Part shown: piece by piece, positions 15,570 through 27,821 of the stretch | Numbering within the stretch: the first letter of the stretch is position 1 | Layout of the letters: each line of letters begins with the position of its first letter | Source: Bacteroidales bacterium | GTDB taxonomy: Bacteria; Bacteroidota; Bacteroidia; Bacteroidales; UBA12077 | Assembly (NCBI GenBank): GCA_028282585.1 | Contig: JANQHR010000139.1 | Span: 1 to 36,866 of the forward strand | Direction of reading: 5' to 3' | DNA: 36,866 nt | Program-made: the position numbers and the translations under genes | The notes under the pieces: generated by a model | What the model was told of the DNA's origin: nothing | What the model saw: only the letters and a program-made list of their open reading frames with translations | The model's database searches: none

Positions 15570-16382
15570 ATGATTCTTAATATCTCAATAGATTTTTTAA
15601 AAAATGCATATATATACTCACCCGGAATAATTACTTTGCTTATTCTAGCCGGATTTATGGTTGGAGTAATAAATACCATTGCTGGTAGCGGTACTGTTAT
15701 TACTTACTCGTTGTTTATGATGTTGGGCTTGCCTGTAAACCTCGCAAACGGTACTATACGGTTAGGTGTAATAATGCAAACTTTAACCTCTACTCTCAAT
15801 TTTAAAAGACATAATACATTAGATTGGAAGAAAGGCTTTAAACTTGCAGTTCCGGTGGTTATAGGTTCTATTGTGGGGGCTCAAATTGCTATTGAAATTA
15901 ATGAAGCCATATTCGAAAAAATTTTAGCAGGTATTCTAATCATTATGCTATTCTTCATTTTTTATAGACCTGAAAAATGGTTGAAAGGCCAAGTACAGAA
16001 AATTCAAAGCAAACCAACGTTTATTCAGCTATTCTTATTTTTTATTATAGGACTTTATGGAGGATTTATCCATATTGGCGTAGGTATTTTCATGCTCTCC
16101 GTTCTCGTGTTAAATGCTGGTTACGATTTAGTAAAAGCCAATGCTATAAAGGTGATGACTGTATTTCTTTACAGCCCATTTGCGCTAACTGTTTTTATCA
16201 TAAATGATCAGGTTCATTACGGTATAGGATTAATTGCAGCTATTGGAAATGTTTTTGGTGGATATGTTGGCTCAAGAATGGCAATTAGTTGGGGAAATAA
16301 TTTTGTACGTTGGGTGTTAATGGTTGTAATTATAACTTTTTCAGCATATCTTTTGAATCTTCCTGAACTTTTTCGTGCATAA
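15570..16382 (+). CDS. TauE/SafE (TSUP) family membrane protein
   Basis: G.INTIAGSG, ANGT.R and GLYGGFIHIGVG motifs; about 8 TM helices; ATG 15570 preferred over TTG 15516. Confidence 0.85.
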   Translation: MILNISIDFLKNAYIYSPGIITLLILAGFMVGVINTIAGSGTVITYSLFMMLGLPVNLANGTIRLGVIMQTLTSTLNFKRHNTLDWKKGFKLAVPVVIGSIVGAQIAIEINEAIFEKILAGILIIMLFFIFYRPEKWLKGQVQKIQSKPTFIQLFLFFIIGLYGGFIHIGVGIFMLSVLVLNAGYDLVKANAIKVMTVFLYSPFALTVFIINDQVHYGIGLIAAIGNVFGGYVGSRMAISWGNNFVRWVLMVVIITFSAYLLNLPELFRA

Positions 16383-16407
16383 AATGTTACGCTTATATTA
16401 AACAAGT

Positions 16408-16438
16408 TTTGTTTTTAAAAATAATGTAATTATACTTG
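16408..16438 (+). promoter_or_regulatory. Candidate promoter of the his leader and operon
   Basis: TTTG (16408-16411), 19 nt, TATACTTG (16431-16438); close to the Bacteroidota -33/-7 consensus, 18 nt before the leader 1 ATG. Confidence 0.6.
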
Positions 16439-16456
16439 CACTATCAACATAGAAAA

Positions 16457-16534
16457 ATGAGTTTACAAAATTTACATACAATTCTTCATCACCATCATCA
16501 TGCTGGTGCATATTACCTATGCAAATTTTTGTAA
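16457..16534 (+). CDS. his operon leader peptide 1 (MSLQNLHTILHHHHHAGAYYLCKFL, 25 aa)
   Basis: Hand-translated; 5 consecutive His codons plus one more; A-rich start; followed by a terminator; upstream of hisG. Confidence 0.88.
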   Translation: MSLQNLHTILHHHHHAGAYYLCKFL

Positions 16535-16563
16535 AATCCTAAAGATAAATTTAAAAAAATAAT

Positions 16564-16591
16564 GGGCTTGCAAAATTTGCAGGCCCTTTTT
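16564..16591 (+). terminator. his attenuator terminator 1
   Basis: GGGCTTGCAA-aat-TTGCAGGCCC-TTTTT; the 3' end of leader 1 (TGCAAATTTTTGTAA) is complementary to TTGCAAAATTTGCA in this hairpin (antiterminator). Confidence 0.85.
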
Positions 16592-16620
16592 CGTATAAAC
16601 AATTTAATAGTTAAAATAAA

Positions 16621-16698
16621 ATGAACTTAAAACAACATCATATTCATCATCATCATTCGAGTTTGAATCAAACCCGGCAGAAAGTACTATGGATATAA
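16621..16698 (+). CDS. his operon leader peptide 2 (MNLKQHHIHHHHSSLNQTRQKVLWI, 25 aa)
   Basis: Hand-translated; 6 His in 7 codons; A-rich start; followed by a second terminator. Confidence 0.88.
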   Translation: MNLKQHHIHHHHSSLNQTRQKVLWI

Positions 16699-16721
16699 AT
16701 TTAAGTTCACTATAAAAAATT

Positions 16722-16753
16722 AAAAGGCCTACAGTTCTCTGCAGGCCTTTTTT
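16722..16753 (+). terminator. his attenuator terminator 2
   Basis: AAAAGGCCT-a-CAG-ttct-CTG-c-AGGCC-TTTTTT, ending 22 nt before the hisG ATG. Confidence 0.85.
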
Positions 16754-16775
16754 ATTTAAAAACACATAATCAATT

Positions 16776-17633
16776 ATGGAAAAACTAAAAATTGCAGTAC
16801 AAAAGTCAGGAAGGTTAAGTGAAAAATCGCTTCAGCTTTTAAAAGAATGCAGTATTAAATTAACGAATGGTAATCGAAAGCTAATTTCAGTATCATCCAA
16901 TTTTCCCATAGAAATACTCTTTTTACGAGATGATGATATTCCGCAATCCATCTATGATAGTGTAGCAGATATCGGAATTGTTGGAGAAAATGAATTCGTT
17001 GAAAAAAATTATCCTCTTAAAATATATAAACGATTAGGATTTGCCAAATGTCGTTTATCTATTGCCATTCCGAAAACAGAAAACTTCGATTCACTTGAGT
17101 ATTTTCAAAATAAGAAAATTGCTACCTCTTATCCATTCATCCTAAAGTCTTTTCTTAAAAAAAATAACATCAATGCGGAAATACACCAAATCAGTGGTTC
17201 GGTTGAAATATCTCCTGGTATTGGGCTGGCCGATGGTATTTTTGATATAGTAAGTTCTGGAAGTACATTGATCAGTAATGGATTAAAAGAAGTAGAAAAA
17301 GTTATGGATTCTGAGGCTGTTTTTATAGGTAACCCTAATATAAAGACTACCAAAAAAGAGATTCTGGAACAGCTTTTATTCAGAATAAATTCGGTTCAGC
17401 AAGCAAATTCCAATAAATATATTCTACTAAATGTTCCCAAAGGTAATCTAGATGAGGTTATTCAAATTATTCCAGGAATGAGAAGTCCAACCATTATGCC
17501 ATTAATTGATGATGAATGGTGCTCATTACATTCGGTAGTTAATGAGCAGGAATTCTGGGAAGTTATTGATCAGCTTAAATCAGCTGGTGCAGAAGGTATC
17601 TTGGTAGCACCTATCGAAAAAATGATCTTGTAA
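16776..17633 (+). CDS. hisG: ATP phosphoribosyltransferase (long form)
   Basis: IAVQKSGRL, RDDDIP, GSVE and DIVSSGSTL motifs plus C-terminal regulatory domain. Confidence 0.97.
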   Translation: MEKLKIAVQKSGRLSEKSLQLLKECSIKLTNGNRKLISVSSNFPIEILFLRDDDIPQSIYDSVADIGIVGENEFVEKNYPLKIYKRLGFAKCRLSIAIPKTENFDSLEYFQNKKIATSYPFILKSFLKKNNINAEIHQISGSVEISPGIGLADGIFDIVSSGSTLISNGLKEVEKVMDSEAVFIGNPNIKTTKKEILEQLLFRINSVQQANSNKYILLNVPKGNLDEVIQIIPGMRSPTIMPLIDDEWCSLHSVVNEQEFWEVIDQLKSAGAEGILVAPIEKMIL

Positions 17634-17643
17634 AAATAGAAAA

Positions 17644-18933
17644 ATGAAAATAATAGAATATCCAAGCCAAATTAAATTACAAGAAATCCTGACGCGTCCG
17701 GTTTTCGATTCAGTTAAACTGGAGAAATCAGTTACGAAAATCATGTCTTTGGTTCAAAAGAAAGGAGATAAAGCGCTATTTGCCTTATCGAAAAAGTTTG
17801 ATAAGGCCAACATTCAGGAGCTAAAGCTATCTTCAGAACTTATAGAAAATTCGGAAAAGCTAATCGATAATAAATTAAAAAATGCCATAAAAACAGCTTC
17901 ACTGAATATTGCAAAGTTTCACAATTCACAAATCTACGAATCAGAAGTTGTGGAAACAATGAAGGGCATTAAATGTTGGCAAAAATCTGTACCAATTGAA
18001 AAAGTTGGCCTTTATATTCCCGGAGGCTTGGCACCTCTGTTTTCAACTGTTCTTATGCTAGCAGTTCCTGCTCAATTAGCAGGTTGCAAAGAAGTTATTT
18101 TATGTACTCCTCCAGGCAAAGATGGAATTGATCCAGCCATATTATATGCTGCTAAAATATCCGGTGTTAAAGATGTTTTTATAGTTGGCGGAGCACAAGC
18201 AATTGCAGCAATGGCATATGGAACTGAATCCATACCAAAAGTTGATAAGATATTTGGGCCTGGAAATCAGTTTGTAACTACTGCCAAACAAATTGTTGCT
18301 TCACAAGGAATTGCAATCGATATGCCTGCTGGTCCATCAGAAGTTATGATTTTAGCCAATGAAAATGCTAACCCAGATTTTATTGCAGCTGATTTACTCT
18401 CTCAAGCAGAACACGGATTTGATAGCCAGGTAATTTTAGTCACCACAGAAAGATCAATTATCAGCAAAACTTTAAAAAGTTTAAATGACCAGCTTAATGT
18501 ATTGCCCAGAAAGGAAATTGCTGAGAAATCGCTTGAGTCCGGAGCTATTATATTAGTCGACAATACAGAAAAAATGATCACTATAGCGAATGCTTACGCT
18601 CCGGAGCATTTGATTATTTCAACTTCTAATTATACCGAATTGATTGAAAAAGTATACAATGCCGGATCAGTATTTTTAGGAAATTTTACACCTGAAAGCC
18701 TTGGTGATTATGCATCAGGTACCAACCATACCCTACCAACCAATGGTTTTGCCAGAAGTTATAGCGGGCTGAATATGGATGCTTACTTCAAGAAAATTAC
18801 TTTTCAGGAAGCTACATCTGAAGGAATTGAGATTATCGGAAACCTTGTTGAAACCATGGCCGAAGCAGAACAGCTGCAAGCACACAAAAATGCTATTAGC
18901 ATTAGATTAAAAGCAATAAAAAATGAAAAATAG
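17644..18933 (+). CDS. hisD: Histidinol dehydrogenase
   Basis: GLYIPGG, DKIFGPGN, DMPAGPSE, LSQAEH, APEHL and GDYASGTNHTLPT motifs. Confidence 0.97.
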   Translation: MKIIEYPSQIKLQEILTRPVFDSVKLEKSVTKIMSLVQKKGDKALFALSKKFDKANIQELKLSSELIENSEKLIDNKLKNAIKTASLNIAKFHNSQIYESEVVETMKGIKCWQKSVPIEKVGLYIPGGLAPLFSTVLMLAVPAQLAGCKEVILCTPPGKDGIDPAILYAAKISGVKDVFIVGGAQAIAAMAYGTESIPKVDKIFGPGNQFVTTAKQIVASQGIAIDMPAGPSEVMILANENANPDFIAADLLSQAEHGFDSQVILVTTERSIISKTLKSLNDQLNVLPRKEIAEKSLESGAIILVDNTEKMITIANAYAPEHLIISTSNYTELIEKVYNAGSVFLGNFTPESLGDYASGTNHTLPTNGFARSYSGLNMDAYFKKITFQEATSEGIEIIGNLVETMAEAEQLQAHKNAISIRLKAIKNEK

Positions 18934-19972
18934 TATAAACATAAACAAACTGATTCGAAAAAACATTTTGGAACTAACCCCATATAATTCAGCTCGTGGG
19001 GAGTTTTACGAATCCGATTTCATTTTTTTGGATGCTAATGAAAATCCCTTTCCTTTAGGATATAATAGGTATCCGGATCCTTTACAAAAGGAACTTAAGG
19101 AGGCTATTTCAATAGAAAAAGAAATTCCCGTTCAGAATATTTTTTTAGGAAATGGAAGTGATGAAATCATTGATTTATTGTACCGTGCTTTTTGCTACCC
19201 TGGAAAAGACTCAGTTATCATTAATACTCCTACCTATGGAATGTATGAATTATGCGCCAGGGTCAACGATATACAAGTGATTAAAATAAACTTAGATGAT
19301 GATTTTCAAATTGACTTAGATTCTATTCTAAAAGCTAATTTACAAGCTAAAATGATATTTATCTGTTCACCCAATAATCCGACAGGAAATATTATTCAGA
19401 AAGATTTGATTCTTGAATTATTGTCAAAATACAAAGGAATTGTAATAATTGATGAAGCATATATTGATTTTGCAAACAATGAAGGATTTGCATCTGAAAT
19501 CAATAAATATACTAACCTGATAGTTTTACAAACATTTTCAAAGGCTCGTGCTATGGCCGGTGTTCGTTTAGGTATGGCATTTATGAACTCCGAAATTGTT
19601 GGAATACTTAATAAAATAAAACATCCATATAATATCAGCTACCTCAATCAAAAAGCTATTTTAAAATCTTTAAAAAATAAATTAAATGAAGTTGGAATAA
19701 AAGCCATTTTAAAACAAAAAGAATGGTTAACAGAACAACTAGGTAATTTAAAAATTATGCAAAAAATATGGCCATCAGATGCTAATTTTCTATTGGTAAA
19801 ATTTTTTGATCATGATAAGATATTTAAATATCTAAGAAAAGAAGGAATTATAGTTCGTGATCGATCCAAAGAACCTGGTTGCGAAGGATGTTTAAGAATA
19901 ACAATAGGAAAATCATCAGATAATCAATTATTAATAAACTGTTTAAAAAAATATCAAAAAATAAATCTTTAA
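18923..19972 (+). CDS. hisC: Histidinol-phosphate aminotransferase
   Basis: LDANENP, NRYPDP, GNGSDE, CSPNNPTGN, DEAY and TFSKA motifs. Confidence 0.96.
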   Translation: MKNSININKLIRKNILELTPYNSARGEFYESDFIFLDANENPFPLGYNRYPDPLQKELKEAISIEKEIPVQNIFLGNGSDEIIDLLYRAFCYPGKDSVIINTPTYGMYELCARVNDIQVIKINLDDDFQIDLDSILKANLQAKMIFICSPNNPTGNIIQKDLILELLSKYKGIVIIDEAYIDFANNEGFASEINKYTNLIVLQTFSKARAMAGVRLGMAFMNSEIVGILNKIKHPYNISYLNQKAILKSLKNKLNEVGIKAILKQKEWLTEQLGNLKIMQKIWPSDANFLLVKFFDHDKIFKYLRKEGIIVRDRSKEPGCEGCLRITIGKSSDNQLLINCLKKYQKINL

Positions 19973-19976
19973 AGAT

Positions 19977-21083
19977 ATGAATAAGATACTATTTATTGAT
20001 CGGGATGGGACTTTAATTAAAGAACCTGTAGATGAACAAGTTGACTCATTAGAAAAATTGGAATTCATTCCTGGCATTTTTCGGGTACTTTACTTGTTAA
20101 CCAATCAGTTTGATTATGAATTAGTCATAGTTTCGAACCAGGATGGTTTGGGAACCGGCACCTATCCTACCGAAGCTTTCGAAAAGGTCCAGGATAAATT
20201 GTTAAAAACTTTAGCAGGTGAAGGAATTAAGTTCAAAGAAATATTGATTGACAAATCATTTCCTAAAGATAAGATTTCAACCAGGAAACCTGGTATTGGT
20301 ATGGTTAAAAAATACCTGAATGAAACGCTTGATTACGAAAAATCTTTTGTTATTGGTGATCGGTTAACTGATTTGCAATTAGCACAAAATATGAACCTCA
20401 AAGGAGTTTTACTTGGAAATAAACACGAAATAAATATTGCCAATAATAAAACTCTTTTCAATTGCAATAGTTGGGATGAAGTTCTTGAAGTCATAAGAAA
20501 AAATTACAGGTCATCTTTTGTAAAAAGAGAAACCAGTGAAACTAAAGTTGAAATTAAGTTATCTCTTGATGGTAGAGGAAAAAATCATATTGAAACTGGT
20601 TTAAAATTCTTCGACCATATGTTAGAGCAGTTATCAAAACACTCCGGAATCGATTTAGCCATAAAGGTAAATGGTGATCTTGATGTTGATGAACACCATT
20701 CCATAGAAGATACTGCAATAGCTTTAGGTGAAGCTTTTACAAAAGCCTTAAACAATAAGAAAGGTATTGAACGTTATGGATTCGTCTTACCGATGGATGA
20801 TTGTTTAGCGCAAGTTGCTATTGATTTCGGTGGTAGGCCCTGGCTGGTCTGGGATGCATCCTTTAAAAGGGAAAAGATTGGTGATATGCCAACAGAGATG
20901 TTTTATCATTTCTTTAAATCCTTTTCTGATTCCGCTCGTTGTAACATAAACATAAAAGCAGAAGGTAACAATGAACATCATAAAATTGAAAGCATTTTTA
21001 AAGCGTTTGCTAAAGCAATGAAAATGAGTATAAATCAAGATAAATTATCCATAAATGTTCCTTCAACAAAAGGAGTATTATAA
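19977..21083 (+). CDS. hisB: Bifunctional histidinol-phosphatase / imidazoleglycerol-phosphate dehydratase
   Basis: N-terminal HAD motif DRDGTL; C-terminal FFDHML, DEHHSIED and NEHHKIE. Confidence 0.96.
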   Translation: MNKILFIDRDGTLIKEPVDEQVDSLEKLEFIPGIFRVLYLLTNQFDYELVIVSNQDGLGTGTYPTEAFEKVQDKLLKTLAGEGIKFKEILIDKSFPKDKISTRKPGIGMVKKYLNETLDYEKSFVIGDRLTDLQLAQNMNLKGVLLGNKHEINIANNKTLFNCNSWDEVLEVIRKNYRSSFVKRETSETKVEIKLSLDGRGKNHIETGLKFFDHMLEQLSKHSGIDLAIKVNGDLDVDEHHSIEDTAIALGEAFTKALNNKKGIERYGFVLPMDDCLAQVAIDFGGRPWLVWDASFKREKIGDMPTEMFYHFFKSFSDSARCNINIKAEGNNEHHKIESIFKAFAKAMKMSINQDKLSINVPSTKGVL

Positions 21084-21095
21084 TTCATAATTCAA

Positions 21096-21677
21096 ATGAA
21101 AGTTATAATCATAAAATATAATGCAGGCAACACTCAAAGTGTCGCGTTTGCTTTAAAGCGTTTAGGAGTTAAACCAATAATAACAAATGATTCAGAACAA
21201 ATTCTAAAAGCTGATAAAGTTATTTTTCCAGGTGTAGGAGAAGCTTCAACTACCATGAATTACCTTATCGTAAACAACTTGAACAAAGTTATTTTAGAGC
21301 TAAAACAGCCTTTTTTAGGAATTTGTTTAGGAATGCAATTGATGTGTAAATTCTCTTTGGAAGGTAAAACCAAATGCTTAGGAATCTTTGATGATTTAGT
21401 TGAGAAATTTCCCCCTAAAAATAAAATTCCACATATTGGCTGGAATAGTTTAACCAACTTAAAAGGGCCATTATTTAAAGATATTTCGGCTAACGAATAT
21501 GTTTATTTTGTTCACAGCTATTATGTACGATTAAACAAAAATTCTATTGCCGAAACAAATTACATCAATCCTTTTGCAGCAGCAATAAGAAAAGATAATT
21601 TTTTTGCCGTTCAGTTCCACCCCGAAAGAAGCGGAAAAACAGGCGAAATCATTTTAAAAAACTTTATAGAATTATGA
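21096..21677 (+). CDS. hisH: Imidazole glycerol phosphate synthase, glutaminase subunit
   Basis: FPGVG, GICLGMQ, YFVHSY and QFHPE motifs. Confidence 0.96.
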   Translation: MKVIIIKYNAGNTQSVAFALKRLGVKPIITNDSEQILKADKVIFPGVGEASTTMNYLIVNNLNKVILELKQPFLGICLGMQLMCKFSLEGKTKCLGIFDDLVEKFPPKNKIPHIGWNSLTNLKGPLFKDISANEYVYFVHSYYVRLNKNSIAETNYINPFAAAIRKDNFFAVQFHPERSGKTGEIILKNFIEL

Positions 21678-22396
21678 TAGAAATAATACCAGCAATCGAT
21701 ATAATTGATGGTCAATGTGTAAGATTATCACAAGGACTTTACAATAAAAAAAGAGTGTACTCCAATCAACCAACGTTAATTGCCAAAGCTTTTGAAAATC
21801 AGGGATACAAGCGTCTACATTTGGTTGATCTGGATGGAGCCAAATCAGGGAAACCCGAAAATTTAAAAGTGCTTGAAAAAATTTGTTCTAATACCAACTT
21901 AATTGTGGATTATAGTGGAGGTATACGCAATAAGGAACAAATTGAAAACGCATTAAGAGCAGGTGCTAAATACATTGCAATAGGCAGCCTGGCAATTAAT
22001 AACTCAAGTTCTTTTATAAAGTTTATTGAAAAATTTGGAGCACAATTATTTATTGTTGCATCAGATGTTTTAAATGAACAGGTCTATATTAACGGATGGC
22101 AGGAAAAAACAGATATAAAAATCTATGATTTAATATCACGGTATATCGAACTTGGGATTCAAAAGTTTATGTGTACCGATATTTCTAAAGATGGCATGTT
22201 AGCAGGTGTAAATATTGATTTTTACAAATCTTTAAAAGACCAGTTCAAAAATAAATATATTATTGCCAGCGGAGGTGTTAGTTCCAAAAAAGATATCTAT
22301 GAACTCGAAAAGGCAGGTATTGATGCTATTATTGTAGGCAAAGCTTTTTATGAAGATATTTTGCCAGTAGAAAACTTAACTTTAAAACAATGCTAG
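21674..22396 (+). CDS. hisA: ProFAR isomerase
   Basis: IIPAIDI, LHLVDLDGA, TDISKDGML and IASGGV motifs. Confidence 0.96.
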   Translation: MIEIIPAIDIIDGQCVRLSQGLYNKKRVYSNQPTLIAKAFENQGYKRLHLVDLDGAKSGKPENLKVLEKICSNTNLIVDYSGGIRNKEQIENALRAGAKYIAIGSLAINNSSSFIKFIEKFGAQLFIVASDVLNEQVYINGWQEKTDIKIYDLISRYIELGIQKFMCTDISKDGMLAGVNIDFYKSLKDQFKNKYIIASGGVSSKKDIYELEKAGIDAIIVGKAFYEDILPVENLTLKQC

Positions 22397-23145
22397 CAAA
22401 AAGAATAATACCTTGTTTGGATATAAAAGATGGCCAGACTGTAAAAGGAATCAAGTTTGAACAGATCAAAGTAGTAGGCGATCCTGTTGAGTTGGGTAAA
22501 TATTACTGCGAAAATGGCGCTGATGAATTGGTATTTCTGGACATCACAGCAACGCATGAGAAACGTAAAGCTTGGATTGATTTGGTAAAGCGAATAGCCA
22601 GAAAAATAAATATTCCATTTACAGTTGGAGGAGGTATTTCCAATATTGAAGATGCCGAAAAGATCTTAAACGCTGGAGCGGATAAAATATCTGTAAATTC
22701 AGCGGCAATCAATAATTCAAAATTGATTTCGGATATTGCTAAGAAGTTTGGAAGCCAATTTGTTGTATTAGCTATTGATGCAAAACTTGAAAACAATCAA
22801 TGGAAGGTTTATAAAAACGGTGGTAGAATTCAAACTGAGTTAGAATTATTTAGTTGGGCAAAAAAAGCCGAGGAGTTAGGATGTGGTGAAATTCTTTTCA
22901 CTTCTATGAATCATGATGGTAGTAAAAATGGTTTTGCCCTAGAGCCTCTTAAGTTTCTTACAGAAAGTTTAAAAATCCCTTTAATTGCCTCTGGTGGTGC
23001 TGGTACCATAGGAGATTTCGAAGATGTATTTAAGTTCTCTAATGTTGAAGCTGCAATAGCTGCAAGTGTATTTCACTCTAAAGAAATTGAAATAAAAAAT
23101 TTAAAAAAGGAATTGTCTAGAAATAGCATTCCAATAAGACTCTAA
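22390..23145 (+). CDS. hisF: Imidazole glycerol phosphate synthase, cyclase subunit
   Basis: KRIIPCLD, GADELVFLDITA, PFTVGGG and IASGGAG motifs. Confidence 0.97.
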   Translation: MLAKRIIPCLDIKDGQTVKGIKFEQIKVVGDPVELGKYYCENGADELVFLDITATHEKRKAWIDLVKRIARKINIPFTVGGGISNIEDAEKILNAGADKISVNSAAINNSKLISDIAKKFGSQFVVLAIDAKLENNQWKVYKNGGRIQTELELFSWAKKAEELGCGEILFTSMNHDGSKNGFALEPLKFLTESLKIPLIASGGAGTIGDFEDVFKFSNVEAAIAASVFHSKEIEIKNLKKELSRNSIPIRL

Positions 23146-23156
23146 AACAATTGATT

Positions 23157-23747
23157 ATGAATTTAGATTTTGCAAAACTAAATGGATTTATTCCAGTTGT
23201 AATTCAAGATGTTAACACTAGGGAGGTTTTAATGCTTGGATTTATGAATGAGGAAGCTTATCAAAAAACAGCAAAAGAAAAACTGGTTACGTTTTACAGC
23301 CGTTCACGCAAAAAATTATGGACAAAAGGAGAAACCAGTGGAAACTTTTTAAAAGTAAATAAAATAATATCGGATTGTGATAGGGATTCTCTTTTAATTC
23401 TGGCTGAACCGACAGGGCCCGTTTGTCATGAGGGAAATAAAGCTTGTTTCAATCTTCAAGATCAAATCTTTGATTTGAACTATTTACAGGAAGTTATTGA
23501 ACAACGTAAAAAAGAAATGCCAAAAGATTCCTATACTACCAGGCTTTTTGAAAAAGGAATCAATAAAATAGCTCAGAAAGTTGGTGAAGAAGTGGTTGAA
23601 TTGATCATAGAAGCAAAAGATAACAATAACGATAATTATTTTTTAAATGAGGCTGCTGATTTGATTTATCATCTTTTAGTTTTACTTTCTGTTAAAAAAT
23701 TTAAAATAAAAGATGTAATCCGACTGTTGGAATCAAGACATAGATAA
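23157..23747 (+). CDS. hisIE: Bifunctional phosphoribosyl-AMP cyclohydrolase / phosphoribosyl-ATP diphosphatase
   Basis: LWTKGETSGN, DCDRD, CHEG…C, KVGEE and EAADLIYH motifs; ATG 23157 (TTG 23151 possible). Confidence 0.95.
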   Translation: MNLDFAKLNGFIPVVIQDVNTREVLMLGFMNEEAYQKTAKEKLVTFYSRSRKKLWTKGETSGNFLKVNKIISDCDRDSLLILAEPTGPVCHEGNKACFNLQDQIFDLNYLQEVIEQRKKEMPKDSYTTRLFEKGINKIAQKVGEEVVELIIEAKDNNNDNYFLNEAADLIYHLLVLLSVKKFKIKDVIRLLESRHR

Positions 23748-23764
23748 ATTAACACTAAATTAGA

Positions 23765-23794
23765 TTTACTTTTTAAAAAGTATTTATATATTTG
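23765..23794 (+). promoter_or_regulatory. Candidate promoter of the aromatic operon leader
   Basis: Perfect -7 element TATATTTG (23787-23794) 16 nt before the leader ATG; weak -33 (TTTA); spacer carries the palindrome TACTTTTTAAAAAGTA. Confidence 0.6.
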
Positions 23795-23810
23795 TCAATA
23801 ACAAACAAAG

Positions 23811-23861
23811 ATGAAAAATAACGCAACTACATATTACTATTACTATTTATTCTTGGAATAA
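23811..23861 (+). CDS. Tyr-rich leader peptide 1 (MKNNATTYYYYYLFLE, 16 aa)
   Basis: Hand-translated; 5 consecutive Tyr codons and one Phe; followed by alternative pairing segments and a terminator. Confidence 0.88.
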   Translation: MKNNATTYYYYYLFLE

Positions 23862-23894
23862 AGCAGGGGAGTAATATTGTTGTATAAAATACTT

Positions 23895-23923
23895 AAAGGT
23901 CCTGCTTAAACAGGACCTTTTTT
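23895..23923 (+). terminator. Aromatic operon attenuator terminator 1
   Basis: AAAGGTCCTG-cttaaa-CAGGACC-TTTTTT; AAGCAGG at the leader stop pairs with CCTGCTT of the 5' arm and loop (antiterminator). Confidence 0.88.
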
Positions 23924-23935
23924 ATTGAAATAAGT

Positions 23936-23995
23936 ATGATCAGGTTTACTTCACATTATTATTACTTCTATTACAGATACAAGTTGTATCCCTGA
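23936..23995 (+). CDS. Tyr/Phe-rich leader peptide 2 (MIRFTSHYYYFYYRYKLYP, 19 aa)
   Basis: Hand-translated; 7 Tyr and 2 Phe in 19 codons; starts 12 nt after terminator 1. Confidence 0.88.
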   Translation: MIRFTSHYYYFYYRYKLYP

Positions 23996-24031
23996 AAAGC
24001 TATGTCCATAAATTAAAATCATCAAATAATC

Positions 24032-24066
24032 AAAAAGCGTCTCAGGGAATCCTAAGGCGCTTTTTT
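24032..24066 (+). terminator. Aromatic operon attenuator terminator 2
   Basis: AAAAAGCGTCT-c-AGG-gaat-CCT-a-AGGCGC-TTTTTT; TCCCTGA…GCT spanning the leader 2 stop pairs with AGC…TCAGGGA (antiterminator). Confidence 0.85.
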
Positions 24067-24086
24067 AATTTTTAAAAACTTAAACA

Positions 24087-25259
24087 ATGAAACCAGCAAA
24101 ACGAATCCAAAACATCCAAGAGTACTACTTCTCCAAAAAGTTAACGGAAATAAGAAAAATGCAACAGCAAGGAATTGATGTAATCAATCTGGGAATAGGA
24201 AGCCCAGATCTTCCTCCACACCCGGATGTAATTTATGAATTAAACAAAAGCAGTCAATCTACTGATAGCAACATGTACCAATCGTATCGAGGAATTGATG
24301 AATTAAGAACTGCTATTGGCAACTGGTATCAAAAAATTTACCACGTTTACCTGGATACAAATACAGAAGTATTACCTCTAATGGGATCAAAAGAGGGAAT
24401 TATGCATATCTCTATGGCCTTTTGTGACCCAGGTGACCAAGTGCTTCTGCCTAATCCAGGCTATCCCGCCTACACGCTTGTTTCTAAACTATTAAATCTT
24501 GATATCCAATATTATAATCTTAACGAGCAAAACAATTGGTTACCTAGTCTTAATGAGTTAGAATCAATTAGTAACGATCGATGTAAAATGATATGGATAA
24601 ACTATCCGCATATGCCTACAGGTAAAGTTGCCGATGCAGGTACACTCAGGGAGCTTGTTATGTGGGCAAAATACAGAGATATTCTCGTTATAAACGATAA
24701 TCCTTATAGTTTAATATTAAATAAAAACCCTTTAAGTATTCTTTCAAATCTAAAAGATTATAAGCATGTTCTTGAATTGAATTCTTTGAGCAAATCTTAC
24801 AATATGGCCGGATGGCGAATTGGTATGGTAGGTGGTTCAAAAGAGAATATTAATCATATCTTAAAAATTAAAAGCAATTTTGATTCTGGTATGTATAAAG
24901 CAATTCAGATGGCAGCTGCTAAAGCTCTTAATTTAGGAAGTGATTGGATATTTGAATTAAATAATGAATATGAAAAAAGAAGAGAAATAATTTGGTATAT
25001 ACTGGACACTTTAAACTGTATTTATCAAAAGGAAACCAGTGGATTATTTGTATGGGCAAAAATTCCAGGAACTTTTAATAATTCATTTGAATTCTCTGAT
25101 TACTTACTTCATACACTTTGTTTATTTGCCACTCCAGGAAGTATCTTCGGAAATAATGGTAATCAATATATTCGATTTTCACTTTGTGCCAATCAAAAAA
25201 CGCTCCTGAAAGCTTTAAACCGAGTTAAAACTTTTAAAGAACAAACCATATGCGAATAA
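24087..25259 (+). CDS. Class I/II PLP-dependent aminotransferase (probable aromatic/prephenate aminotransferase by context)
   Basis: NLGIGSPD, GSKEG, NYPHMPTG, DNPY and SLSKSYNMAGWRIG (PLP Lys) motifs. Confidence 0.88.
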   Translation: MKPAKRIQNIQEYYFSKKLTEIRKMQQQGIDVINLGIGSPDLPPHPDVIYELNKSSQSTDSNMYQSYRGIDELRTAIGNWYQKIYHVYLDTNTEVLPLMGSKEGIMHISMAFCDPGDQVLLPNPGYPAYTLVSKLLNLDIQYYNLNEQNNWLPSLNELESISNDRCKMIWINYPHMPTGKVADAGTLRELVMWAKYRDILVINDNPYSLILNKNPLSILSNLKDYKHVLELNSLSKSYNMAGWRIGMVGGSKENINHILKIKSNFDSGMYKAIQMAAAKALNLGSDWIFELNNEYEKRREIIWYILDTLNCIYQKETSGLFVWAKIPGTFNNSFEFSDYLLHTLCLFATPGSIFGNNGNQYIRFSLCANQKTLLKALNRVKTFKEQTICE

Positions 25260-26086
25260 CTATAGTGGGTCTAGGTTTAATTGGTGGTTCCATGGCCATT
25301 GATCTTCGAAAAAGAGGTTTTGCATCTCATATTATTGGAGTTGATTCTAATAAACTTCATGCAAAAACGGCACTTAATATTGGTTTAATTGATCAAGTTA
25401 GTAATCTTGAAGATGCTATTTCTGAAACTGAATTAATTATCCTTGCAATTCCTGCGAATGAAACCATCCGGTTGTTACCAAAAGTGCTTGATAAAGTCAA
25501 AAACCAAATCGTAACAGATGTATGTTCCATCAAGGCAAATGTCTGTGAGCGAATAAAATACCATTCCAATCGTTTAAATTTCGTTGCATCGCATCCCATG
25601 GCTGGTACAGAAAACTCTGGGCCGTGGTCTGCAGAATCTGGATTATACGATGGGAAAGCAGTAATCTTTTGTGATGCTGAAGATAGCAATCCGCAAGCGC
25701 TAAATGTTGTGACGAAAATGTATGACTACTTAAACATGCGGCCCATTTATATGAACGCATATAATCATGATGTACATGTAGCTTATGTTTCACACATTTC
25801 ACATATCAGTTCATTTGCATTGGCTTTAACGGTTCTGGATAAGGAAAAAAATGAAAAAAATATTTTTGATCTTGCCAGTGGAGGATTTGATTCAACTGTG
25901 CGATTAGCAAAAAGTTCAGCCGAGATGTGGTCAACTATTTTTGAAAACAACTCGGAGAATGTAATCTCTGTTTTAGATACATATATTGAAAAATTAAAGG
26001 AATTTAAATTGGCTATTCAAAAAAACGAAAATGGCCAAGTATCTGATTTAATTAATAAAGCAAACCGAATTAAAAAGATATTGTAA
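25250..26086 (+). CDS. tyrA: Prephenate dehydrogenase
   Basis: GLGLIGGS, DVCSIK, HPMAGTE, HD…AYVSHISH and RLAKSSAEMW motifs. Confidence 0.93.
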   Translation: MRITIVGLGLIGGSMAIDLRKRGFASHIIGVDSNKLHAKTALNIGLIDQVSNLEDAISETELIILAIPANETIRLLPKVLDKVKNQIVTDVCSIKANVCERIKYHSNRLNFVASHPMAGTENSGPWSAESGLYDGKAVIFCDAEDSNPQALNVVTKMYDYLNMRPIYMNAYNHDVHVAYVSHISHISSFALALTVLDKEKNEKNIFDLASGGFDSTVRLAKSSAEMWSTIFENNSENVISVLDTYIEKLKEFKLAIQKNENGQVSDLINKANRIKKIL

Positions 26087-26087
26087 A

Positions 26088-27182
26088 ATGAAAACAAATT
26101 TAAATTTAAACTTAAAAAATATATTTGACTGGAGTATCATTCAAGAGGATAAACCAATTATCATTTCTGGCCCTTGCAGCGCAGAAACCGAAGAACAAAC
26201 TATTCAAACAGCAATTGCACTTAGAAAATTCGGAATTAAAATATTTCGAGCCGGAATCTGGAAACCACGCACTCGCCCTAACTCATTCGAAGGTGTTGGA
26301 AGTATAGCTTTAGAATGGTTAAAAACAGTTAAAAGTGAAACCGGAATGTTTCTTGCTACAGAAGTGGCTAATGTCAAACATATTTATGAATCGTTAAAAG
26401 CAGGTATTGATATTCTTTGGATAGGTGCTCGAACTACAGCTAACCCTTTTGCAATTCAGGAGATTGCTGAAGCATTAAAAGGCATAGACATTCCCATTTT
26501 AATTAAAAATCCTGTAAATCCGGATGTTAACTTATGGATTGGTGCAATAGAAAGGTTTTATAAAACTGGTATAACAAAAATTGGTGCAATTCATAGAGGA
26601 TTTTCGACTTACGAAAAAAGCATTTATAGAAACATCCCACAGTGGCAAATTCCGGTTGAACTGAAAACAAGAATACCGGAAATTCCGCTTTTATGCGATC
26701 CTAGCCATATATCCGGAAATAGGCAGTTATTAAAAGACATATCTCAAAAGGCTATTGATCTCAATTTTGATGGGCTTATGATAGAAACTCATCCTTCTCC
26801 TGATAAAGCCTGGAGCGATGCAAAGCAGCAAATAACTCCCAATTCACTTAAGCATATGATTGATAACTTAGTTATCAGAGAAGAACTTCCTAAAGGTATT
26901 TCATTAGATACTATCGAAGATCTTAGATATAGAATTGATCAATGTGATGATGAATTATTAAATATTCTTGAGAAAAGAATGAATCTAGTTCATTCAATTG
27001 GAATCTATAAAAAGGAAAATAAAATGACTATATTACAGCCGGGACGCTGGGAAAATGTAATTGGTAAGAGTATTGAAAGAGGATTAAAAAAGAATCTAAA
27101 CAAAGATTTTATATCCAATATTTTTAAGTCTATTCATCAGGAATCTATAAATAAACAAAATAAGATTATGAACAATAGGTAA
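26088..27182 (+). CDS. Bifunctional DAHP synthase (type I-beta) / chorismate mutase (C-terminal AroQ)
   Basis: GPCSAE, WKPRTRP.SFEG, WIGART and DPSH motifs; C-terminal LRYRIDQCD…KRM…K…Q..RW. Confidence 0.93.
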   Translation: MKTNLNLNLKNIFDWSIIQEDKPIIISGPCSAETEEQTIQTAIALRKFGIKIFRAGIWKPRTRPNSFEGVGSIALEWLKTVKSETGMFLATEVANVKHIYESLKAGIDILWIGARTTANPFAIQEIAEALKGIDIPILIKNPVNPDVNLWIGAIERFYKTGITKIGAIHRGFSTYEKSIYRNIPQWQIPVELKTRIPEIPLLCDPSHISGNRQLLKDISQKAIDLNFDGLMIETHPSPDKAWSDAKQQITPNSLKHMIDNLVIREELPKGISLDTIEDLRYRIDQCDDELLNILEKRMNLVHSIGIYKKENKMTILQPGRWENVIGKSIERGLKKNLNKDFISNIFKSIHQESINKQNKIMNNR

Positions 27183-27242
27183 AACTATTTGAAGTTAATC
27201 ATTAGTATGATAATTTTATTTCATAAACCTAAAAAATTAAAC

Positions 27243-27821
27243 ATGAAAAAAACAGTTTTACTAGTTTTAGCATTTTTCCTTGCTATTACTATTATAAAAG
27301 CACAAGAAGGAGAAAAGAAAGAGCTTAAACCAGCACTTTTGGTAATTGATGTTCAAAATGCCTATATTAATTGGATGGATCAATCGAATAAGGATATAGC
27401 ATTTGAATATATAAATGCTCTAATTAATCTGTTTGAAAAATATGATCTTCCAATAATTAATGTATATCATCAGGATAAAAACTGGGGACCTTCCGAAGAT
27501 TCAGAAGAATTCAAGTTTGCTCCTGAGATCAAAATAGAAGATGAATATCCAAGAGTAGTAAAAAATTATGGAAATGCATTTACAAAAACCAATTTAGATA
27601 AGATTTTAAATGAAAAGGAAGTTAACACCCTATTTCTGTGTGGATTAAGTGCAACAGGTTGCGTTCTGTCTACCTATGTAGGTGCTAACGATCATGATTA
27701 TAAAGTATTTTTGATCGAAAATGCTTTGTTAAGTCCAGATGCAGAGCATACAGGTATTATTGAGCAAATCAAGAATTCGATATCGTATGAAACTCTTTCT
27801 TTTATGTTAGAATATTTATAA
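27243..27821 (+). CDS. Isochorismatase-family cysteine hydrolase with N-terminal signal peptide
   Basis: LLVIDVQ, K…NAF and GLSATGCV (Asp-Lys-Cys triad); start set at ATG 27243 (MKKTVLL…KA/QE). Confidence 0.85.
   Translation: MKKTVLLVLAFFLAITIIKAQEGEKKELKPALLVIDVQNAYINWMDQSNKDIAFEYINALINLFEKYDLPIINVYHQDKNWGPSEDSEEFKFAPEIKIEDEYPRVVKNYGNAFTKTNLDKILNEKEVNTLFLCGLSATGCVLSTYVGANDHDYKVFLIENALLSPDAEHTGIIEQIKNSISYETLSFMLEYL

What the first reader, a model, noticed from the sequence alone, without database searches (positions are those of the whole stretch)
16408..16775. Tandem (double) histidine attenuator: two His-rich leader peptides, each with its own terminator, ahead of hisG
Seen in sequence: promoter-like element, ORF MSLQNLHTILHHHHHAGAYYLCKFL (16457-16534), hairpin+U5 (16564-16591), ORF MNLKQHHIHHHHSSLNQTRQKVLWI (16621-16698), hairpin+U6 (16722-16753), then hisG. 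In unit 1 the leader 3' end (TGCAAATTTTTGTAA) can pair with the terminator, and a competing hairpin TGCATA-ttacc-TATGCA (16507-16523) lies just after the His run. The antiterminator of unit 2 (GCAGAAAGTACT vs AGTTCTCTGC) is weaker. Established: enterobacterial hisL attenuation uses one leader and one terminator, and tandem architectures are known for riboswitches and T-boxes. Inference: two ribosome-stalling sensors in series multiply read-through probabilities, giving lower basal expression and a sharper response to His-tRNA. I do not know of a described double leader-peptide attenuator, but could not search the literature.
Basis: partly seen in the sequence, partly recalled or inferred. Interest (0 to 1): 0.9.

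Follow-up and report, generated by a model that had tools for sequence, protein, structure and literature searches.

The report
Two histidine attenuators in series
Ahead of the histidine-synthesis genes of an uncultured Bacteroidales bacterium lie two complete histidine-sensing "leader peptide plus terminator" switches in a row, an arrangement kept across a whole bacterial family and repeated at its tyrosine/phenylalanine operon.

Summary
Between one promoter-like site and hisG lie two short ORFs with His-codon runs, each followed by a hairpin plus T-run. It is not an assembly artefact. In the window's family, 29 of 33 genomes with hisG carry two units and 4 carry one. All other Bacteroidota loci examined have one unit or none.

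Both hairpins show compensatory changes. A promoter motif precedes unit 1 in 28 of 29 tandem loci and lies between the units in 1 of 29. The gap between units is at most 52 nt in 21 of 29.

Unit 1 has a co-varying antiterminator: the stretch at the leader's stop codon pairs with the apical half of terminator 1 (partner permutation 0 of 5000). Support for a unit 2 antiterminator is marginal (254 of 5000).

The same window holds a second tandem pair, Tyr-rich, ahead of a tyrosine operon, also conserved.

Nine literature searches found only tandem attenuators that sense different signals (mgtCBR), tandem T-boxes and tandem riboswitches. Verdict: a real, conserved, same-signal tandem leader-peptide attenuator, a new variant of a known kind. 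No expression data exist.

The parts
16407..16438 (+). Promoter-like site of Bacteroidota type: TTTTG (16407-16411), a 19-nt spacer, then TATACTTG (16431-16438). It lies 26 nt upstream of the sORF1 ATG.
   Evidence: Sequence. The TTTTG and TA..(A/C)TTGCA blocks are invariant in 17 genus sequences. A TTG-N17-22-TAnnTTTG-like motif is found upstream of unit 1 in 28 of 29 tandem loci. The consensus itself is recalled from the literature, not taken from a call.
16457..16534 (+). Leader ORF 1 (25 codons), MSLQNLHTILHHHHHAGAYYLCKFL. His run of 5 codons at 16487-16501.
   Evidence: Orthologous ORFs with an in-frame His run occur in 29 of 33 family genomes.
16460..16478 (+). Region 1 of unit 1: the start of sORF1, which pairs with the end of the ORF. 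It acts as an anti-antiterminator and forms when no ribosome is on the leader.
   Evidence: MFE fold. In the consensus structure, 14 pairs are kept in 15 to 17 of 17 sequences, with only one-sided changes.
16517..16537 (+). Region 2 of unit 1, overlapping the last codons and the stop codon of sORF1. Its core TGCAAATTTT (16520-16529) pairs with the apical half of terminator 1 (16572-16581) and acts as the antiterminator.
   Evidence: Cognate pairing is better than permuted partners (0 of 5000 permutations). The A-run length tracks the U-run length of the terminator loop across genera.
16564..16591 (+). Intrinsic terminator 1: a 10-bp hairpin (16564-16586, -15.3 kcal/mol) followed by T5.
   Evidence: 4 of 9 stem pairs show changes on both sides that keep the pair, in 29 sequences.
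16592..16620 (+). Short A/T-rich spacer between the units. It has no promoter motif and is poorly conserved.
16621..16698 (+). Leader ORF 2 (25 codons), MNLKQHHIHHHHSSLNQTRQKVLWI. His run at 16636-16656: 6 His codons with one Ile codon inside.
   Evidence: The HHHIHHH type is conserved in the genus.
16673..16693 (+). Candidate region 2 of unit 2 (CCCGGCAGAAAGTACTATGGA), interruptedly complementary to terminator 2. Its upstream part can instead pair in a small hairpin just after the His run.
   Evidence: Duplex of -12.4 kcal/mol, z -1.1. Consensus hairpin. Support is weak: -2.7 kcal/mol in the snapshot fold of this window, and 254 of 5000 permutations family-wide.
16722..16753 (+). Intrinsic terminator 2: hairpin core 16726-16747 (-11.1 kcal/mol) extended by an A-tract, followed by T6.
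   Evidence: 5 of 12 stem pairs show changes on both sides that keep the pair, in 29 sequences.
16776..23747 (+). The regulated operon: hisG, hisD, hisC, hisB (fused HAD-IGPD), hisH, hisA, hisF, hisIE.
   Evidence: ORFs. Pfam.

Best explanation
The his operon is transcribed from one promoter (-7 box at 16431-16438). Its leader carries two complete ribosome-mediated histidine attenuators in series.

How each unit would work. A ribosome translates a short ORF with a run of His codons.
- When His-tRNA is plentiful, the ribosome reaches the stop codon and covers the adjacent RNA (region 2). The downstream hairpin plus U-run then forms and RNA polymerase terminates.
- When His-tRNA is scarce, the ribosome stalls on the His run and region 2 stays free. 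Region 2 pairs with the terminator as it emerges, and polymerase reads on. In unit 1 the pairing is with the top of both arms and the A/U loop.
- With no ribosome at all, the start of sORF1 pairs with region 2, so termination is again favoured.

How the two units combine. A polymerase that passes terminator 1 meets, 34 nt later, a second leader ORF that a new ribosome must translate, and then a second terminator. hisG is therefore expressed only if both checks report His shortage. Read-through would be roughly the product of the two probabilities, which gives a lower basal level and a steeper response.

What is shown and what is inferred.
- Shown by sequence and comparison: the anatomy, its conservation, both hairpins, the single promoter motif, and the unit 1 antiterminator.
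- Inferred: ribosome stalling, the effect of each terminator, the unit 2 antiterminator, and the multiplicative behaviour.

The arrangement probably arose by an old tandem duplication. Both units share layout and terminator core with the single units of neighbouring lineages. Since then the two units have kept distinct identities: terminator 1 has an A/U-only loop and terminator 2 has a mixed loop.
For: Anatomy in the window.

Conservation. The family holds 4 genera, and hisG was found in 33 of 56 genomes. Two units occur in 19 of 20 genomes of the window's genus, 2 of 2 of a second genus and 8 of 11 of a third. Among 96 non-redundant loci with at least one unit, the other 67 have exactly one unit, and 11 further loci have none. 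No locus outside the family has two.

Hairpins. Compensatory changes occur in 4 of 9 pairs of terminator 1 and 5 of 12 pairs of terminator 2.

One transcript. A promoter motif lies upstream of unit 1 in 28 of 29 tandem loci and between the units in 1 of 29. The spacer is 24-52 nt in 21 of 29. The promoter blocks are invariant in the genus, while the spacer is poorly conserved.

Switch logic in snapshot folds, taken when only the 5' arm and loop have been made. With a ribosome on the His run, the 5' arm is at least 60% paired in 26 of 29 unit 1 copies, 21 of 29 unit 2 copies and 63 of 67 single units. With a ribosome on the stop codon, the figures are 3 of 29, 1 of 29 and 17 of 67.

Unit 1 antiterminator. 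Cognate region 2 and apical terminator 1 pair at a mean of -11.6 kcal/mol against -9.5 for non-cognate partners, and 0 of 5000 partner permutations reach this. The A-run and U-run lengths co-vary: A5/U5, A6/U6, A5UU/AAU5, A6UU/AAU6 and A7UU/AAU7. Two species use a different, G+C-rich antiterminator (-17.5 and -17.7 kcal/mol, z -2.7 and -3.1).

The codon run matches the operon's product. The neighbouring tyrosine operon has two Tyr-rich leader-plus-terminator units. These are conserved in 12 of 12 genus loci, while 3 outgroups have one unit. They are also tandem in 4 of 6 genomes of another genus.

Rfam gives sub-threshold His_leader hits to both units.
Against: No RNA evidence. No RNA run holds this sequence, so the transcription start, the 3' ends and any His response are untested.

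Equilibrium folding keeps both terminators at P of 0.9 or more in nearly all genus copies, even with a stalled ribosome. The model therefore needs kinetic, co-transcriptional competition.

The predicted antiterminator stability of the tandem units is no better than dinucleotide shuffles: mean z +0.09 for unit 1 and +0.32 for unit 2. For single units of other Bacteroidota it is -1.97. Complementarity to the 5' arm alone is not above non-cognate partners in the tandem units.

Partner permutation for unit 2 is only marginal (254 of 5000). In this window the unit 2 antiterminator is especially weak (-2.7 kcal/mol, 98% of shuffles as stable).

The His run of leader 1 is eroded in two species (HHQHY and HHLHH).

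Four family genomes make do with one unit.

The genomes compared are related, so the counts and the permutation test overstate independence. The promoter consensus used is recalled, and an unrecognised promoter type cannot be excluded.
Confidence: 0.75

Rival explanations
1. Only one of the two units is a working histidine sensor. The other is a partly decayed duplicate that acts as a constitutive, leaky terminator or insulator. In this window that would most likely be unit 2; in some species it would be unit 1. It sets the basal level but adds no His sensing.
For: The unit 2 antiterminator is not distinguishable from chance in this window and is marginal family-wide (254 of 5000). The His run of leader 1 is eroded in two species. 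Four family genomes have a single unit.
Against: Both ORFs keep their start codon, an in-frame His run and a stop codon beside region 2 in 29 genomes of three genera. A mere terminator would not need these. Some unit 2 copies have strong cognate complementarity: L136 at -16.1 and L137 at -12.4 kcal/mol, with 0 of 25 other partners as good. The two-unit design is also kept at the Tyr/Phe operon.
Confidence: 0.13
2. The two units are separate transcripts. Unit 1 is a short independent RNA or peptide gene ending at terminator 1. Unit 2 plus hisG is transcribed from an unrecognised promoter in or after terminator 1, which would make this an ordinary single attenuator.
For: The promoter scan rests on a recalled consensus. 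8 of 29 spacers are 86-188 nt, long enough for a promoter. One locus (L032) has a weak motif between the units.
Against: 21 of 29 spacers are 24-52 nt. 28 of 29 loci have no motif between the units. The spacer is poorly conserved, whereas the upstream promoter is invariant. A His-codon leader with a co-varying antiterminator has no purpose if nothing lies downstream of it on the same RNA.
Confidence: 0.06
3. The short ORFs encode functional His-rich micropeptides, for example metal-binding ones, or the region is a small RNA. The link to hisG would then be coincidental.
For: Peptide sequence outside the His run is conserved within the genus, for example M.LQ..HT.HHHHHH.G...CK[FI]L.
Against: The conserved flanks coincide with RNA pairings: the start of the ORF with its end and the end of the ORF with the terminator. 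The units always lie directly upstream of hisG. At the tyrosine operon the same layout carries Tyr/Phe runs instead, as expected of attenuators and not of a metal-binding peptide.
Confidence: 0.03
4. Assembly artefact: a spurious local duplication in a metagenome-assembled genome.
For: The genome is a 173-contig assembly. The only run that holds the stretch may be its own source.
Against: The two units differ in sequence. The arrangement recurs in 28 other independently assembled genomes, including a single-contig one.
Confidence: 0.01

Closest known systems
Enterobacterial his operon leader (hisL attenuator; Rfam RF00514 His_leader)
   Same: A short ORF with a run of His codons is followed by alternative hairpins and an intrinsic terminator ahead of hisG. 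Regulation is by ribosome stalling on scarce His-tRNA (background as summarised in PMC9413887, passages seen).
   Different: The enterobacterial leader has one leader and one terminator. Here there are two full units. Both units score below the Rfam threshold (24.8 and 20.2 bits against 49), so they are not members of that sequence family. The antiterminator here targets the apical half and loop of the terminator.
Single His leader-peptide attenuators upstream of hisG in other Bacteroidota (Bacteroides, Prevotella, Dysgonomonas, Marinilabilia, Flavobacteriia)
   Same: They sit in the same position and have the same parts. Their terminator cores are related (GG.CTGCA...TGCAG.CC), and their leader starts are similar (M..Q..HT.HHHH). 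They are probably the ancestral state.
   Different: They have one unit only. Their antiterminator is stronger and statistically clear: mean -14.3 kcal/mol with z -1.97, against -7.8 and -9.0 kcal/mol with z about 0 in the tandem units. That such attenuators were predicted in Bacteroidetes by Vitreschak and co-workers (2004) is recalled. I could not read that paper.
Salmonella mgtCBR leader: tandem attenuators with the short ORFs mgtM and mgtP (Lee and Groisman 2012, PMC3641672)
   Same: Two short ORFs in one mRNA leader each control transcription elongation into the operon. The authors themselves call them tandem attenuators (abstract and Discussion section 11 read).
   Different: The two ORFs sense different signals (ATP, and proline-charged tRNA) and act additively. 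Their stem-loops do not resemble intrinsic terminators. Here both units carry codons for the same amino acid, and each has its own intrinsic terminator.
Tandem riboswitches and double T-boxes
   Same: Two complete sensor-plus-terminator units lie in series in one leader. Tandem riboswitches have been linked to 'more-digital' regulation (PMC2864571, passage). Double T-boxes are thought to arise by recent duplication and perhaps to act cooperatively (PMC9413887, passage).
   Different: Those systems sense a metabolite or an uncharged tRNA directly by RNA. Here the sensor is a translating ribosome, so each unit needs its own round of translation initiation.
Engineered tandem pT181 antisense-RNA attenuators (bioRxiv 10.1101/003335, citing Lucks et al.)
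   Same: Two identical transcription attenuators placed in series shift the threshold and raise the sensitivity (passages). This is the behaviour proposed here.
   Different: That system is synthetic and is controlled by antisense RNA, not by translation.

Membership tests
Ribosome-mediated (leader-peptide) transcription attenuators | A short ORF in the 5' leader with a run of codons for the amino acid that the operon makes | tested here: met
   5 and 6 His codons in two 25-codon ORFs ahead of hisG, conserved in 29 genomes. The Tyr/Phe operon carries Tyr/Phe runs.
Ribosome-mediated (leader-peptide) transcription attenuators | An intrinsic terminator between the leader ORF and the first structural gene | tested here: met
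   There are two hairpin-plus-T-run sites. Compensatory changes occur in 4 of 9 and 5 of 12 stem pairs.
Ribosome-mediated (leader-peptide) transcription attenuators | An alternative pairing that excludes the terminator and is open or closed according to ribosome position: unit 1 | tested here: met
   Region 2 at the stop codon pairs with the apical half of terminator 1. 0 of 5000 partner permutations reach the observed value, and run lengths co-vary. Snapshot folds give 26 of 29 (ribosome on the His run) against 3 of 29 (ribosome on the stop codon). Caveat: the stability is not above shuffles.
Ribosome-mediated (leader-peptide) transcription attenuators | An alternative pairing that excludes the terminator and is open or closed according to ribosome position: unit 2 | tested here: inconclusive
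   Snapshot folds give 21 of 29 against 1 of 29. However, z is +0.32 against shuffles, 254 of 5000 permutations reach the observed value, and the pairing is weak in this window (-2.7 kcal/mol).
Ribosome-mediated (leader-peptide) transcription attenuators | Read-through rises when the charged tRNA is scarce and depends on translation of the leader | not testable with these tools
   No RNA run was found. The organism is uncultured; its relatives are metagenome-assembled genomes.
Rfam RF00514 His_leader | Covariance-model score at or above the gathering threshold (49 bits) | tested here: not met
   Scores are 24.8 bits (16486-16594) and 20.2 bits (16644-16754), both sub-threshold.
Tandem cis-regulatory units in one leader (as in tandem riboswitches and double T-boxes) | Two complete sensor-plus-terminator units between one promoter and the first gene | tested here: met
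   Anatomy. The promoter motif lies upstream of unit 1 in 28 of 29 loci and between the units in 1 of 29. The spacer is at most 52 nt in 21 of 29. This holds at the level of motifs only; no transcript has been mapped.
mgtCBR-type tandem attenuators | Two leader ORFs that respond to different signals, without intrinsic terminators | tested here: not met
   Both ORFs carry His runs and each has an intrinsic terminator. The family's features are taken from PMC3641672.

The most novel reading that the evidence does not exclude
In this uncultured Bacteroidales family, putting two same-signal leader-peptide attenuators in series is a general design rule for amino-acid operons. It is seen at the his operon and independently at the Tyr/Phe operon, driven from a single promoter. 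Each unit has a comparatively weak, loop-directed antiterminator. The two units would multiply to give a low-leak, ultrasensitive, noise-filtered response to charged tRNA. This would be the first natural case of tandem ribosome-mediated attenuators that sense the same amino acid, and a natural counterpart of tandem riboswitches and double T-boxes.
Probability: 0.55. Interest if true: 0.75.

Novelty: new variant of a known kind. Interest (0 to 1): 0.62.

Why it matters
Leader-peptide attenuation is a textbook mechanism that has always been drawn with one leader and one terminator. Tandem arrangements that sharpen the response are known for riboswitches and T-boxes. For leader peptides, the only case my searches found is a two-signal one, mgtCBR.

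This is a same-signal tandem version kept for a family's worth of evolution at two different operons. Single-unit relatives occur inside and outside the family as natural controls. Together they give a clean system for asking three questions:
- Do two ribosome-based sensors in series multiply?
- How does the second ribosome load after read-through?
- Why do weaker, loop-directed antiterminators go with duplication?

It also shows that His and Tyr/Phe leader-peptide attenuators are widespread in Bacteroidota, where such control has hardly been studied, and it flags short ORFs that annotation pipelines will miss.

Tried and rejected
Rfam. There were only sub-threshold hits. The best-ranked ones (MicC, SpF03) merely match the terminator hairpins, and I rejected them as chance.

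Equilibrium folding with a masked ribosome. The terminator always wins, so this approach cannot show a switch. I replaced it with snapshot folds, shuffle controls and partner permutation.

Antiterminator defined as pairing to the 5' arm. There was no cognate signal in the tandem units. The signal appeared only when the loop and the tops of both arms were taken as the target.

It is not conserved in the genus alignment.

Cross-pairing idea. The free 3' arm of terminator 1 might pair with the 5' arm of terminator 2 and relay antitermination. I considered this by eye from the hairpin list. The similarity is explained by common descent, so I did not pursue it and do not claim it.

Search for other attenuator-controlled operons in this genome. 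The LeuA_dimer and KARI_C searches found nothing. The only anthranilate-synthase-like hit (32 bits) lies after a gene that I guess is a peroxiredoxin-like one. Homoserine dehydrogenase sits inside an operon. No further leader peptides were established. Other hits of the genome-wide sORF scan were not examined and may be chance.

Phylum-wide pattern scan. In 400 other Bacteroidota genomes, 25 had a match. All 29 loci fetched lacked hisG within 1.5 kb, and they look like repeats in coding sequence. The pattern is narrow (4 + 4 His codons, 115-145 nt apart), so this is weak evidence of absence.

RNA evidence. No RNA holder is listed for window:16300-17300. Read laying was not used, because the only holder is kept as contigs and may be the source sample.

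Literature. Nine searches were made. I found no description of tandem leader-peptide attenuators for one amino acid, and nothing on His attenuators in Bacteroidetes. Subscription-journal papers could not be read, among them Vitreschak et al. 2004 and Lopatovskaya et al. 2010, which I only recall. The supplementary lists of PMC2965389 and PMC9413887 might hold relevant cases.

Structure, complex and protein-homology tools were not used, because nothing here needed them.
Full report
**What is there.**

- A promoter-like site: TTTTG at 16407-16411, 19 nt, then TATACTTG at 16431-16438.
- A 25-codon ORF (16457-16534, MSLQNLHTILHHHHHAGAYYLCKFL) with five His codons at 16487-16501.
- A 10-bp G+C-rich hairpin (16564-16586) followed by T5.
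- After 29 nt, a second 25-codon ORF (16621-16698, MNLKQHHIHHHHSSLNQTRQKVLWI) with six His codons at 16636-16656.
- A second hairpin (core 16726-16747) followed by T6.
- The hisG ATG at 16776.

The genes downstream are hisG, hisD, hisC, a fused hisB, hisH, hisA, hisF and hisIE. The gene upstream is a TauE-family exporter on the same strand, ending at 16382. Each unit folds much better than its shuffles: z -3.3 and -5.1, with 0 of 200 shuffles as stable. Rfam gives only sub-threshold His_leader hits to both units, 24.8 and 20.2 bits against a threshold of 49.

**Whose genome.** The closest hisG loci in named records are metagenome-assembled genomes. Most are labelled Bacteroidales or Bacteroidota, and single records carry other labels such as Marinilabiliales. 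The organism is therefore an uncultured member of the Bacteroidales. The only sequencing run that holds the stretch is a DNA run that may be its source.

**Conservation.** I located hisG in relatives and read up to 900 nt upstream. I counted units defined as an ATG-started ORF of 6-45 codons, with at least 3 His in 7 codons, followed within 110 nt by a hairpin plus T-run.

| Group | Genomes with hisG | Two units | One unit |
|---|---|---|---|
| Window's genus | 20 | 19 | 1 (G020) |
| Second genus of the family | 2 | 2 | 0 |
| Third genus of the family | 11 | 8 | 3 |
| Family total | 33 | 29 | 4 |

The family as sampled has four genera, and hisG was found in 33 of 56 genomes. G020, the single-unit genome of the window's genus, has different sequence upstream.

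After removing 16 loci that duplicate a genome, 96 loci have at least one unit: the 29 tandem ones and 67 with exactly one. Eleven further loci had none by these criteria. Four of the 67 single-unit loci are family members by handle. The rest are from other Bacteroidota (Bacteroides, Prevotella, Dysgonomonas, Marinilabilia, Flavobacteriia) or are records whose placement I cannot tell.

So the tandem form is old, restricted as far as sampled to one family, and maintained. It cannot be an assembly artefact. A narrow pattern scan of 400 other Bacteroidota genomes found no further case next to hisG, but that scan is insensitive.

**The hairpins are real RNA or DNA structures under selection.** Over the 29 tandem loci, 4 of 9 stem pairs of terminator 1 and 5 of 12 of terminator 2 show changes on both sides that keep the pair. 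The two terminators have kept distinct identities across the family. Terminator 1 always has an A/U-only loop flanked by GCA...UGC. Terminator 2 has a mixed loop such as GUUCUC or GACUUC. This points to one old duplication followed by separate maintenance, not to repeated recent duplications. That last step is inference.

**One promoter, two units.** In the genus alignment the TTTTG block and the TA..(A/C)TTGCA block upstream of sORF1 are invariant. The stretch between terminator 1 and sORF2 is poorly conserved.

I scanned for TTG, 17-22 nt, then a TAnnTTTG-like word (at least 5 of 6 specified bases). This consensus for Bacteroidota promoters is recalled, not taken from a call. The scan found a site upstream of unit 1 in 28 of 29 tandem loci and between the units in 1 of 29. 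The spacer from the end of hairpin 1 to the sORF2 ATG is 24-52 nt in 21 of 29 loci.

Unless an unknown promoter type hides there, hisG can only be transcribed through terminator 1. That terminator must therefore be conditional.

**How unit 1 switches.** The consensus fold pairs the start of sORF1 (just after the ATG) with its end, including the stop codon. Its 14 pairs are kept in 15 to 17 of 17 genus sequences, with only wobble changes. This is the classical region 1:region 2 pairing, with the His codons in the loop between them.

Region 2 is also complementary to the apical half of terminator 1: the top of the 5' arm, the loop and the top of the 3' arm. In the window, TGCAAATTTT (16520-16529) pairs with AAAATTTGCA (16572-16581).

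Across the family this complementarity co-varies. In the other two genera region 2 lies immediately after the stop codon, and the length of its A-run follows the U-run of the loop: A5/U5, A6/U6, A5UU/AAU5, A6UU/AAU6 and A7UU/AAU7. One genome has GCGAAAUU opposite AAUUUCGC. Cognate pairs average -11.6 kcal/mol against -9.5 for non-cognate pairs, and none of 5000 permutations of partners reaches the observed mean. Relatedness inflates this test, but the length covariation does not depend on it. Two sister species (L010, L013) have lost this pairing. They have instead a G+C-rich stretch further upstream that is complementary to the 5' arm (-17.5 and -17.7 kcal/mol, z -2.7 and -3.1).

Region 2 lies within 12-15 nt of the stop codon, the reach of a ribosome quoted in PMC3641672. 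A terminating ribosome would therefore cover it, and a ribosome stalled on the His run would not.

Snapshot folds of the RNA present when only the 5' arm and loop have been made agree with this:

| Ribosome position | Unit 1 | Unit 2 | Single units elsewhere |
|---|---|---|---|
| On the His run (5' arm at least 60% paired) | 26 of 29 | 21 of 29 | 63 of 67 |
| On the stop codon (5' arm at least 60% paired) | 3 of 29 | 1 of 29 | 17 of 67 |

**What does not fit neatly.**

- At equilibrium the terminators dominate in nearly all genus copies, even with a stalled ribosome.
- The pre-terminator structures of the tandem units are weak: means of -7.8 and -9.0 kcal/mol, against -14.3 for single units.
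- They are no more stable than dinucleotide shuffles: z +0.09 and +0.32, against -1.97 for single units.
- Complementarity to the 5' arm alone is not above non-cognate partners.

For unit 2 the candidate is a stretch spanning the stop codon (16673-16693 here) that is interruptedly complementary to the whole of terminator 2. Its 5' part can instead pair in a small hairpin right after the His run. Partner permutation is only marginal (254 of 5000), and in this window the pairing is poor (-2.7 kcal/mol).

The antiterminator of unit 1 is therefore supported by covariation, but it is thermodynamically modest. That of unit 2 remains a proposal. The association of tandem architecture with weaker antiterminators is itself an observation worth testing.

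**A second tandem pair in the same window.** A genome-wide scan for short ORFs with amino-acid runs followed by terminators found a second pair 60 nt after hisIE.

- A perfect TAnnTTTG word (TATATTTG, 23787-23794).
- sORF 23811-23861 (MKNNATTYYYYYLFLE), then hairpin 23898-23917 plus T6.
- sORF 23936-23995 (MIRFTSHYYYFYYRYKLYP), then hairpin 24037-24060 plus T6.
- An operon of an aminotransferase, prephenate dehydrogenase, DAHP synthase/chorismate mutase and an isochorismatase-family protein.

Two Tyr/Phe-rich units precede the orthologous operon in 12 of 12 genus loci examined. In most species that operon begins with a further ORF of about 280-290 codons. I take it to be prephenate dehydratase, but I did not scan it against Pfam, so the name is my guess. 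Three outgroup genomes have one unit and one has none detected. Two units also occur in G065, at the corresponding locus of G019, and in 4 of 6 genomes of another genus of the family. One of the remaining two has one unit, with only 573 nt of upstream sequence available, and the other has none detected.

The codon run thus matches the operon's product in both cases. That is the signature of attenuation, and it argues against a role for the peptides themselves. It also shows that doubling is a habit of this family and not an accident at one locus. I found no leuA or ilvC in this genome, and no convincing trpE. His and Tyr/Phe may be its only attenuator-controlled amino-acid operons.

**Comparison with what is known.** The principle is that of the enterobacterial his attenuator (summarised in PMC9413887). 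By Rfam's model these units are not members of that sequence family.

The one described leader with two attenuating short ORFs is Salmonella mgtCBR. Its ORFs respond to different signals, act additively, and lack intrinsic terminators. Its authors call it a singular example.

Series arrangements of the same sensor are known for riboswitches, where they are associated with more-digital control (PMC2864571). They are also known for T-boxes, where double T-boxes are thought to arise by duplication and perhaps act cooperatively (PMC9413887). Engineered tandem antisense-controlled attenuators shift the threshold and raise sensitivity.

Nine full-text searches found no tandem leader-peptide attenuator for a single amino acid. 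Subscription papers and supplements were out of reach, so prior mention cannot be excluded.

**Verdict.** I file it as a leader-peptide transcription attenuator by mechanism, duplicated in series: a new variant of a known kind.

The confidence that both units sense histidine on one transcript is about 0.75. The main rival is that only one unit still senses (about 0.13). The multiplicative, sharper response is a reasonable inference from analogous systems and is untested here.

Noticed in passing
window 23787-24086 (+): A second tandem attenuator lies ahead of an aminotransferase / prephenate dehydrogenase / DAHP synthase-chorismate mutase / isochorismatase operon (24087-27821). It has two Tyr-rich leader ORFs, each with its own hairpin plus T6: 23811-23861 MKNNATTYYYYYLFLE with hairpin 23898-23917, and 23936-23995 MIRFTSHYYYFYYRYKLYP with hairpin 24037-24060. 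A perfect TATATTTG -7 word lies at 23787-23794. The pair is conserved as two units in 12 of 12 genus loci and in 4 of 6 genomes of another genus; 3 outgroups have one unit.
   Followed up: yes
L002, L005, L010, L035: between terminator 1 and sORF2: Four genus members carry an extra stretch of about 50 nt with inverted ends (TTGATTTTTTGG...CAAAACAAAAAATCAA) inserted between the two His units. This lengthens the spacer to 86-102 nt. It may be a small palindromic mobile element or an added hairpin.
   Followed up: no
L002 (G023), between terminator 2 and hisG: In this species 127 nt separate terminator 2 from hisG, against 26-42 nt in the other genus loci listed. The stretch holds a TTG-N20-TATAATTG promoter-like site, which could bypass both attenuators.
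   Followed up: no
family-wide: hisG was not found in 17 of 36 other genomes of the window's genus, several of them 97-100% complete. Histidine biosynthesis therefore seems to be variably present within the genus. In G000 the LeuA_dimer and KARI_C searches found nothing, and there is only a weak anthranilate-synthase-like hit, which suggests several amino-acid auxotrophies.
   Followed up: partly
L132-L140 (third genus of the family), upstream of sORF1: In this genus the -7-like promoter word lies only 15-17 nt upstream of the sORF1 ATG, against 26-29 nt in the window's genus. The first leader ORF may therefore be translated from a nearly leaderless mRNA.
   Followed up: no
window 16722-16753, both strands: Terminator 2 is flanked by an A-tract and a T-tract. 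The consensus scan reported it on the minus strand only. It could act bidirectionally, although no convergent gene lies downstream of it.
   Followed up: no
L121 and L187 (G019): In this divergent genus member the aromatic genes are split over two loci. The aminotransferase/tyrA locus carries two Tyr/Phe-rich leaders (MNNFVTYFYFYYFQN and MKISNCTYYYFYYYFFFQERSRE). The second locus, found with the first ORF of the aromatic operon of L112 as query, carries Phe-rich leaders (MNFIKYNNFFNRL and MNKFSNIYFFFFFSDS). This hints at leaders tuned separately to Tyr and to Phe.
   Followed up: partly
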